Position numbers and translations under genes: made by a program. A stretch of DNA of 64,000 nucleotides from a virus (taxonomy: Duplodnaviria > Heunggongvirae > Uroviricota > Caudoviricetes), in IMG/VR virus record IMGVR_UViG_3300021066_000001; one strand, given 5' to 3'. The notes beneath the pieces were generated by a model. The model worked only from the letters and a program-made list of their open reading frames with translations. It was not told the origin of the DNA and ran no database searches. This document shows positions 38,160 to 38,275 of this stretch, piece after piece (position 1 is the first letter of the stretch; the number at the start of each line of letters is the position of its first letter).

Positions 38160-38275
38160 TTTACTTTCTCGGGAGAGAGTGATACATTGAAATTCGTCCA
38201 ACCGGCCCCTCCTCCCCTCCCTGCGAAGGGCCGGTCCTCCAGCGGCGCCCAACTCATCGGGCGCCGCTTTTTCTT
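38160..38275 (+). ncRNA. promoter + C-rich sRNA + terminator, antisense to the tRNA array
   Basis: TTTACT-N17-TACATT at 38160-38188; 8-bp hairpin with C-rich loop; GC hairpin plus U-tract at 38241-38275. Confidence 0.65.

What the first reader, a model, noticed from the sequence alone, without database searches (positions are those of the whole stretch)
38160..38275. Standalone antisense-strand sRNA displaying anti-Shine-Dalgarno motifs
Seen: a plus-strand promoter matching the phage's early consensus, then about 80 nt with an 8-bp hairpin whose loop is CUCCUCCCCUCCCUGCGAA, a single-stranded CCUCC linker and a terminator, all opposite to the tRNA operon. Known: C-rich loops in S. aureus RNAIII and RsaE pair with SD sequences. 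Inference: a broad repressor of SD-dependent host translation or a 16S 3'-end mimic.
Basis: partly seen in the sequence, partly recalled or inferred. Interest (0 to 1): 0.72.

Follow-up and report, generated by a model that had tools for sequence, protein, structure and literature searches.

The report
Jumbo-phage C-rich anti-Shine-Dalgarno small RNA
A 389-kb T4-like phage carries, backwards inside its tRNA cluster, what looks like a complete gene for an ~80-base RNA whose exposed C-rich stretches could cover ribosome-binding sites, as several known bacterial regulatory RNAs do; it has no relatives in related phages and no expression data, so it is a good but unproven candidate.

Summary
On the + strand, 38160-38276 reads as an early-type promoter (rank 18 of 53 genome-wide), an 8-bp hairpin, a CCUCC linker and a 10-bp terminator (z -6.2). 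It is the genome's only such promoter-terminator unit and holds four CCUCC copies. Two other assemblies are identical. Best reading (0.5): a trans-acting C-rich sRNA that pairs with G-rich ribosome-binding sites, working like cuckoo/NfeR1, 6C and RsaE; all Rfam scores fall below cut-off. 'Host-specific' is doubtful: 8 of the phage's own early genes start with GGAGG. About 27 late genes are leaderless and would escape, so the RNA could tilt translation toward late mRNAs (untested). The model buries one CCUCC in an extended stem. A 16S 3'-end mimic is unsupported. No homolog was found in 21 related records, and no RNA data were available. An uncatalogued three-hairpin C-rich RNA family of betaproteobacteria matches its two hairpins in register (28 bits), but homology is unproven. 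This scan has noted similar anti-SD candidates on other phage DNA.

The parts
38160..38165 (+). -35 box (TTTACT) of the phage's sigma70-type early promoter
   Evidence: the same motif marks promoters in relatives G001 and G002
38180..38188 (+). extended -10 (TG-N-TACATT; one mismatch to the phage consensus TAYAAT)
38195..38276 (+). predicted ~81-82-nt sRNA; start at 38195-38196 is inferred from the -10 spacing
   Evidence: start inferred, not mapped
38201..38235 (+). hairpin 1: 8-bp stem and 19-nt C-rich loop with three overlapping CCUCC, including the cuckoo nonamer CCUCCUCCC at 38208-38216; 38213-38222 predicted open
38236..38240 (+). single-stranded CCUCC linker (perfect complement of GGAGG)
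   Evidence: unpaired probability 0.95-1.00
38241..38276 (+). intrinsic terminator: 10-bp stem, 8-nt loop, U tract; one-directional (no U tract on the - strand)
38276..38349 (-). flanking tRNA-Cys(GCA); its CCA end abuts the U tract
37999..38072 (-). flanking tRNA-Thr(CGU)
38079..38201 (-). 40-codon open frame (TTG, with GGAGG 6 nt upstream) opposite the promoter; judged non-coding
   Evidence: not called as a gene

Best explanation
Host sigma70 RNA polymerase transcribes an ~81-nt RNA early in infection from the 38160 promoter, and it ends at the intrinsic terminator. The two G+C-rich stems protect it and hold out single-stranded C-rich seeds (loop 38213-38222, linker 38236-38240). These seeds pair in trans with G-rich translation-initiation regions (GGAGG, GGGAGG, AGGAG) and block 30S loading on a subset of SD-led mRNAs, probably without a chaperone. 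Targets would include host mRNAs and also the phage's own GGAGG-led early mRNAs, while leaderless phage mRNAs would escape. Shown: promoter match, fold, terminator, motif excess, the phage's SD and leaderless gene classes. Inferred: transcription, stability, base pairing, targets and any effect on infection.
For: Complete promoter-RNA-terminator unit, the only one in 389 kb. It is oriented against 18 of the 20 strict promoters, so it is not an mRNA leader, and no ORF follows. Fold z -6.2; four CCUCC copies, with open seeds. Its weak Rfam matches include several C-rich or RBS-pairing sRNA families: anti-hemB 25.4, ar14 20.5, 6C 15.7, CcsR1 15.6, sX13 12.6 and toxic sRNA 12.3 bits. Precedents: cuckoo loops are anti-SD (PMC4615179); NfeR1 silences many mRNAs through them and is Hfq-independent (10.1101/2025.11.14.688489); 6C uses C-rich loops without chaperones and arrests growth when overexpressed (PMC6486639); RsaE UCCC blocks initiation complexes (PMC2790875). 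A multi-copy, promoter-bearing C-rich RNA family in betaproteobacteria has the same two-hairpin geometry. Model pairing: early GGAGG RBS -12.4, capsid AGGAG RBS -6.7, a leaderless late 5' end -4.5 kcal/mol. Leaderless late starts (TAAATA + 4-6 nt + ATG) peak clearly in G000, G001, G002, G004, G007 and G008.
Against: No transcript evidence. No homolog in the 8 related phage records fetched whole (6 complete, 2 partial), in 4 cultured relatives or in further fragments, by BLAST, pattern or covariance model, so nothing shows selection on the CCUCC seeds. The closest relative is distant (capsid 83-85% identical). The first CCUCC is partly buried in the model. C-rich stretches before terminators are common at ordinary gene ends in this clade (14 of 252 against 3.2 expected) and in other phages, so the motif alone does not prove a trans-acting role. 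No single phage gene start has an extended complement: the longest perfect match to the loop anywhere is 11 nt. The host is unknown.
Confidence: 0.5

Rival explanations
1. Recent insertion or relic without a current role: a promoter joined to a gene-end module (C-rich hairpin plus terminator) after loss of its ORF, or a captured piece of a host sRNA gene. It may be transcribed but do nothing useful.
For: Absent from all relatives searched. The same hairpin-plus-terminator module ends ordinary genes here (window 62731 and the rIIB-like operon) and in other phages. The -10 box has one mismatch to the phage consensus.
Against: The promoter is still strong (rank 18 of 53) and sits at exact start-site distance from the hairpin. 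Both stems are perfect, and no ORF remnant lies on the + strand. A strong idle antisense promoter inside a tRNA array should be costly (inference).
Confidence: 0.17
2. Decoy rather than repressor: the RNA mimics a host C-rich sRNA or the 16S rRNA tail and titrates a host factor (Hfq, S1/S21, a tail-cleaving nuclease) or a G-rich host sRNA.
For: Phage sponges and Hfq competitors exist (VpdS, SprY, AsxR; PMC12197685). The U-tailed terminator suits Hfq (own knowledge). It matches in register a betaproteobacterial C-rich RNA family (28 bits with a bacteria-only model). The phage encodes its own IF3.
Against: No rRNA similarity. CCUCC is internal, not at a free 3' end. No phage Hfq, S1, S21 or CsrA partner was found. 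Ordinary terminators reach 24 bits with the same model.
Confidence: 0.12
3. Cis-acting antisense unit: convergent transcription, or pairing with the tRNA-precursor spacer between tRNA-Cys and tRNA-Thr, tunes processing (RNase III) or read-through of the tRNA array. The C-richness then only mirrors a G-rich spacer.
For: It lies exactly opposite a spacer of the tRNA array and abuts the tRNA-Cys CCA end. Complementary C-rich and G-rich loops could start kissing complexes (mechanism from own knowledge of CopA/CopT).
Against: Related arrays have no antisense promoter in their spacers. Downstream gene 37578-37904 has its own late promoter. It does not explain why the loop is specifically anti-SD.
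Confidence: 0.11
4. The functional product is on the - strand. It is either a tRNA-spacer RNA with six GGA motifs that sponges CsrA/RsmA, or a 40-aa peptide (38201-38079) whose RBS the + RNA covers, as in type I toxin-antitoxin pairs.
For: The - strand also folds (z -3.4) and is probably transcribed with the tRNA array. GGAGG lies 6 nt before a TTG that opens 40 codons, and the + promoter sits inside that frame, as for SymR (own knowledge).
Against: The frame scores below all 4000 real-gene windows and like wrong-frame sequence; an open frame this long has P about 0.28; its SD and start are buried in a stem. It has no homolog and was not called as a gene. One SD explains one CCUCC, not four. 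Promoter and U tract both point to the + strand.
Confidence: 0.1

Closest known systems
Cuckoo RNAs: ar14/NfeR1 (RF02344) and CcsR1-4/RSs0680 (RF02791) of alphaproteobacteria
   Same: Exact CCUCCUCCC in a hairpin loop; redundant anti-SD seeds; G+C-rich stems; U tail (PMC4615179; 10.1101/2025.11.14.688489).
   Different: Only one motif-bearing hairpin rather than 2-4; the terminator loop lacks the motif; an extra seed sits in the linker; 20.5 and 15.6 bits against cut-offs of 58.8 and 65.3; phage-encoded.
6C RNA (RF01066; B11 of Mycobacterium tuberculosis)
   Same: Two stems and a poly-U tail; C-rich loop; chaperone-free pairing to G-rich sequences; growth arrest on overexpression is the expected phenotype (PMC6486639).
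   Different: The second loop is not C-rich; 15.7 bits against 47; 6C is actinobacterial.
Betaproteobacterial toxic sRNAs (RF02278) and Burkholderia anti-hemB RNA (RF02837)
   Same: 57-92-nt terminator-ended RNAs; toxic sRNAs inhibit E. coli growth and are thought to pair with RBSs (PMC4603805, PMC7011215). The anti-hemB model shares a CCUCCCUG loop and is the best Rfam match.
   Different: 12.3 bits against 50, and 25.4 against 49.5; no sequence-level homology.
Staphylococcus aureus RsaE and RNAIII UCCC loops; icaR 3'-UTR UCCCCUG
   Same: Unpaired C-rich motif that blocks initiation-complex formation (PMC2790875). The icaR case (PMC3868564) is the precedent for the anti-SD motifs found at gene ends in this phage clade.
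   Different: Different phylum, no homology; those RNAs act on defined regulons.
Uncatalogued three-hairpin C-rich RNA family of a betaproteobacterial lineage (found here; loci L621-L642)
   Same: 8-bp stem, 19-nt C-rich loop, 5-nt linker, 10-bp stem, 8-nt loop, all in ungapped register with L610; phage differences in the stems keep the pairing; own sigma70-type promoter.
   Different: The phage RNA lacks hairpin 1, the GAAAGC...GCUUUC core and the C-rich third loop. It scores 28 bits where ordinary terminators reach 24. The family was found with a phage-derived pattern, so the match is partly circular.

Membership tests
Cuckoo RNA (ar14/CcsR) | CCUCCUCCC motif in a hairpin loop | tested here: met
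   38208-38216; the first base closes the stem and part may be paired
Cuckoo RNA (ar14/CcsR) | 2-4 adjacent hairpins, each with the motif (PMC4615179) | tested here: not met
   second hairpin loop is AACUCAUC
Cuckoo RNA (ar14/CcsR) | Rfam gathering score | tested here: not met
   ar14 20.5/58.8; CcsR1 15.6/65.3
6C RNA (RF01066) | two hairpins, both with C-rich loops; gathering score 47 | tested here: not met
   one C-rich loop; 15.7 bits
Betaproteobacterial toxic sRNA (RF02278) | gathering score 50 | tested here: not met
   12.3 bits
C-rich anti-SD trans-acting sRNAs (functional class) | own promoter and intrinsic terminator, no ORF | tested here: met
   (sequence prediction)
C-rich anti-SD trans-acting sRNAs (functional class) | unpaired C-rich seed complementary to SD sequences | tested here: met
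   (folding model only)
C-rich anti-SD trans-acting sRNAs (functional class) | seed conserved while stems covary | tested here: inconclusive
   no phage homolog found
C-rich anti-SD trans-acting sRNAs (functional class) | expressed, and represses targets in a seed-dependent way | not testable with these tools
Uncatalogued betaproteobacterial three-hairpin family | first hairpin and invariant GAAA...CUUUC closing of hairpin 3 | tested here: not met
Uncatalogued betaproteobacterial three-hairpin family | covariance-model score clearly above unrelated terminators | tested here: inconclusive
   28 bits against 24 for an ordinary terminator; terminator profile 3.2, against 14-32 for members; 2 of 57 unrelated terminators score as high
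16S rRNA 3'-end mimic | helix-45-like hairpin and a free CCUCCU 3' tail | tested here: not met
   no rRNA match; CCUCC is followed by a terminator hairpin
Type I toxin-antitoxin antitoxin | overlapping small toxin ORF on the opposite strand | tested here: not met
   the 40-codon frame has no coding signal, no hydrophobic helix and no homolog

The most novel reading that the evidence does not exclude
A lytic jumbo phage makes an early anti-SD RNA that damps SD-led translation broadly, in host mRNAs and its own GGAGG-led early mRNAs, and frees ribosomes for its leaderless and weak-SD late mRNAs. This would be an RNA-only switch between translation-initiation modes, possibly built from a captured host sRNA gene.
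Probability: 0.17. Interest if true: 0.82.

Novelty: new variant of a known kind. Interest (0 to 1): 0.5.

Why it matters
C-rich anti-SD sRNAs are well known in bacteria. I found no paper describing one encoded by a lytic phage: the library searches gave none, the passages I read in a 2025 review of phage sRNAs (PMC12197685) showed none, and the library is incomplete. If it is expressed and active, it is a compact 80-nt way for a phage to reshape translation. It also makes a clear question testable: whether leaderless late genes in this clade serve to escape an anti-SD repressor. Cloning it into a laboratory proteobacterium with reporter pairs would answer much of this without the phage. The value is limited by the lack of conservation: relatives have leaderless late genes but no such RNA, so it cannot be the general reason for them.

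Tried and rejected
Homolog searches that found nothing: exact 21-mer in viral contigs; BLAST against phage and plasmid records; BLAST, pattern and covariance-model searches of G001-G021 and of RsoM2USA, XacN1, Xoo-sp13 and RAS14. Look-alikes were mostly 3' ends of genes. Flanking proteins 37249-37581, 37578-37904 and 33841-34485 gave no relatives in the viral or protein searches; the helicase and the 79-aa protein led only to non-syntenic loci. R2 model hits in three cultured phages were ordinary gene-end terminators. The single hit for the 40-aa frame is a repetitive protein. G002 has a 123-nt promoter-terminator unit with a C5 linker near its tRNA region, but the R1 model did not match it. 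The primary paper on toxic sRNAs could not be fetched, so it is cited through secondary papers. No host could be assigned. My SD classes come from a home-made gene caller whose start choice favours SD-like sites, so those counts are approximate.

Full report
Setting. The window is part of a 389,331-base virus record, 58% G+C. It is a T4-like jumbo phage: Gp23 is present, and the capsid protein is 57% identical to that of Ralstonia phage RsoM2USA and 51-54% to those of Xanthomonas and Stenotrophomonas jumbo phages. The host is unknown; a beta- or gammaproteobacterium is likely by inference. The finding lies in a spacer of a large tRNA array on the - strand, between tRNA-Cys and tRNA-Thr. Negative positions below count from the window start along the same strand.

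Observation. The promoter motif is far above chance (4 against 0.01 in the window). It occurs 20 times genome-wide and is shared by related phages. Scored with a matrix that excludes it, the site ranks 18th of 53. 'Early' is an inference from its host sigma70 type and from the separate TAAATA late promoter. The predicted RNA folds into two hairpins with z -6.2. Its terminator works in the + direction only. This is the only promoter-terminator unit under 200 nt in the genome. Chance expectation for such a pair is 0.12, so the pairing alone is modest evidence, but four CCUCC copies in 33 nt are not expected from base composition (about 1e-5, post hoc). Two other assemblies agree base for base. 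One correction: the model adds three pairs inside the '19-nt loop', leaving 38213-38222 and the linker 38236-38240 as the open seeds.

What it resembles. No Rfam family reaches its cut-off. The weak matches include several C-rich or RBS-pairing sRNAs: anti-hemB, ar14, 6C, CcsR1, sX13 and the betaproteobacterial toxic sRNA. The loop holds the exact cuckoo nonamer, but cuckoo RNAs need 2-4 motif hairpins (PMC4615179), so it is not a member. It works like this class at best. NfeR1 silences about 7% of genes through redundant anti-SD seeds without Hfq. 6C pairs through C-rich loops without chaperones and stops growth when overexpressed. RsaE blocks initiation complexes with UCCC. Toxic sRNAs inhibit E. 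coli growth and are thought to bind RBSs.

Who would be hit. Of 41 early-type promoters, 8 lead into GGAGG, 3 into AGGAG and 10 into leaderless starts. About 27 genes have TAAATA 4-9 nt before the start codon and so should be leaderless late mRNAs. The same peak at 4-6 nt is seen in five of seven relatives. The structural module has fewer strong SD motifs than the rest (16 of 124 against 90 of 422, p 0.04) and binds the loop more weakly (median -7.75 against -9.45 kcal/mol, p 0.007, rough gene calls). The major capsid gene does have an AGGAG SD, with modest predicted pairing. The RNA therefore cannot be host-specific: the phage's own GGAGG-led early genes are ideal targets, while leaderless genes escape. 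No phage gene start has a long unique complement (longest perfect match to the loop 11 nt), which fits a generic seed rather than one dedicated target. The phage encodes IF3 with an ATA start at 25180-25680 but no detectable Hfq, CsrA, S1 or S21.

Conservation. None was found. The closest records have capsid proteins 77-85% identical. Complete relatives G001, G002 and G005-G008, partial records and four cultured phages lack a match by BLAST, pattern or covariance model. The flanking late proteins gave no relatives in those searches. The absence may reflect distance, but it means no covariation or seed conservation can be shown, and that relatives manage leaderless late genes without this RNA.

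A related pattern that tempers the claim. CCUCC right after the last stop codon before a terminator is enriched across the clade: 14 of 252 against 3.2 in shuffles, while GGAGG is not enriched (G006 contributes most). This phage has two such loops, at 62731-62757 and at the end of the rIIA/rIIB-like operon near -239550; both read CGCCUCC, the complement of its early SD GGAGGCG. The latter position also carries CCUCC in G001 and G004. Unrelated phages show the same gene-end module, and S. aureus icaR is a tested precedent for 3'-UTR anti-SD action. The finding differs from these in having its own promoter and no ORF. The pattern supports a role for anti-SD motifs in this clade, and it also keeps alive the idea of a relic gene end.

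A possible host source. A genome scan with the hairpin pattern found a betaproteobacterial locus that matches all 82 positions without gaps (L610, 40 bits). It belongs to a multi-copy family found in 13 of 41 related genomes. The family has three hairpins, C-rich loops, clear covariation (9 of 20 pairs change on both sides), its own promoter and no Rfam match at cut-off. A model built only from the bacterial members ranks the phage element first in its genome (28 bits, E 3e-5). The search was seeded with the phage's own stem and loop, however; ordinary terminators reach 24 bits; and the unselected terminator part scores only at about p 0.05. Capture from a host is suggestive, not shown; convergence is as likely.

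Rivals. A 40-codon frame on the - strand with GGAGG 6 nt before TTG would make the anti-SD a mere mirror image and the RNA a cis-antisense regulator. The frame has no coding signal, a buried SD and no homolog. A - strand CsrA sponge (six GGA motifs) does not explain the + strand promoter and U tract. A 16S tail mimic lacks both rRNA similarity and a free tail.

Verdict. A real and well-formed candidate sRNA gene. Probability that it is transcribed: about 0.8. Probability that it acts by anti-SD pairing: about 0.5. It is a new variant of a known kind, a C-rich anti-SD sRNA in a lytic jumbo phage, unconserved and untested. Earlier notes of this scan describe similar candidates on other phage DNA; I did not check them. 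Interest 0.5.

Noticed in passing
window 62731-62757 (-); genome position about -239550 (-); G001 ~324140; G004 ~7290; G006 several: Anti-SD motifs directly after the last stop codon and before terminators are enriched in this phage clade (14 of 252 against 3.2 expected). One such site is shared at the terminator upstream of the HNH gene, after the rIIA/rIIB-like operon, in three genomes. Possible 3'-UTR regulators like icaR.
   Followed up: partly
L610:4105-4225, L621-L642: Uncatalogued multi-copy three-hairpin RNA family with C-rich loops, own promoter and a conserved upstream motif (TTGCAA...GTTAC) in a betaproteobacterial lineage; clear covariation; not in Rfam at cut-off.
   Followed up: partly
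window 25177-25680 (-): Phage-encoded full-length translation initiation factor IF3 that appears to start at ATA behind a GAGGT SD, recalling the non-canonical start of bacterial infC.
   Followed up: partly
window 34485, 37904, 53654, 54425, 10447, 18708 and about 20 more in the genome: Late promoter TAAATA 4-9 nt before start codons implies leaderless late mRNAs; same spacing in five of seven relatives.
   Followed up: yes
window 38352-38430 (-): tRNA-like gene with an ACG anticodon loop that neither ARAGORN nor Rfam called.
   Followed up: no
G002 2985-3104 (-), locus L107: Another stand-alone promoter-terminator unit of about 123 nt with three hairpins and a single-stranded C5 linker in a related phage; not matched by the model of the finding.
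   Followed up: partly
window 40527-40563 (-): Rfam abiF RNA match above cut-off (48 bits against 37) inside the tRNA array.
   Followed up: no
window 44693 (-), 59304 (-), 56822 (-); genome position -225409 (-): Early-type promoters not followed by a called ORF within 90 nt; some lead into hairpins and may drive further non-coding RNAs.
   Followed up: no
window 1448-1522 (-); G001 202917; G002 277432: A CUA-anticodon (amber suppressor-like) tRNA is present in this phage and in both close relatives.
   Followed up: no
G001 306555-306937; G004 21885-22214: Relatives carry two-piece (permuted) tmRNA genes; ARAGORN found no tmRNA in this genome.
   Followed up: no
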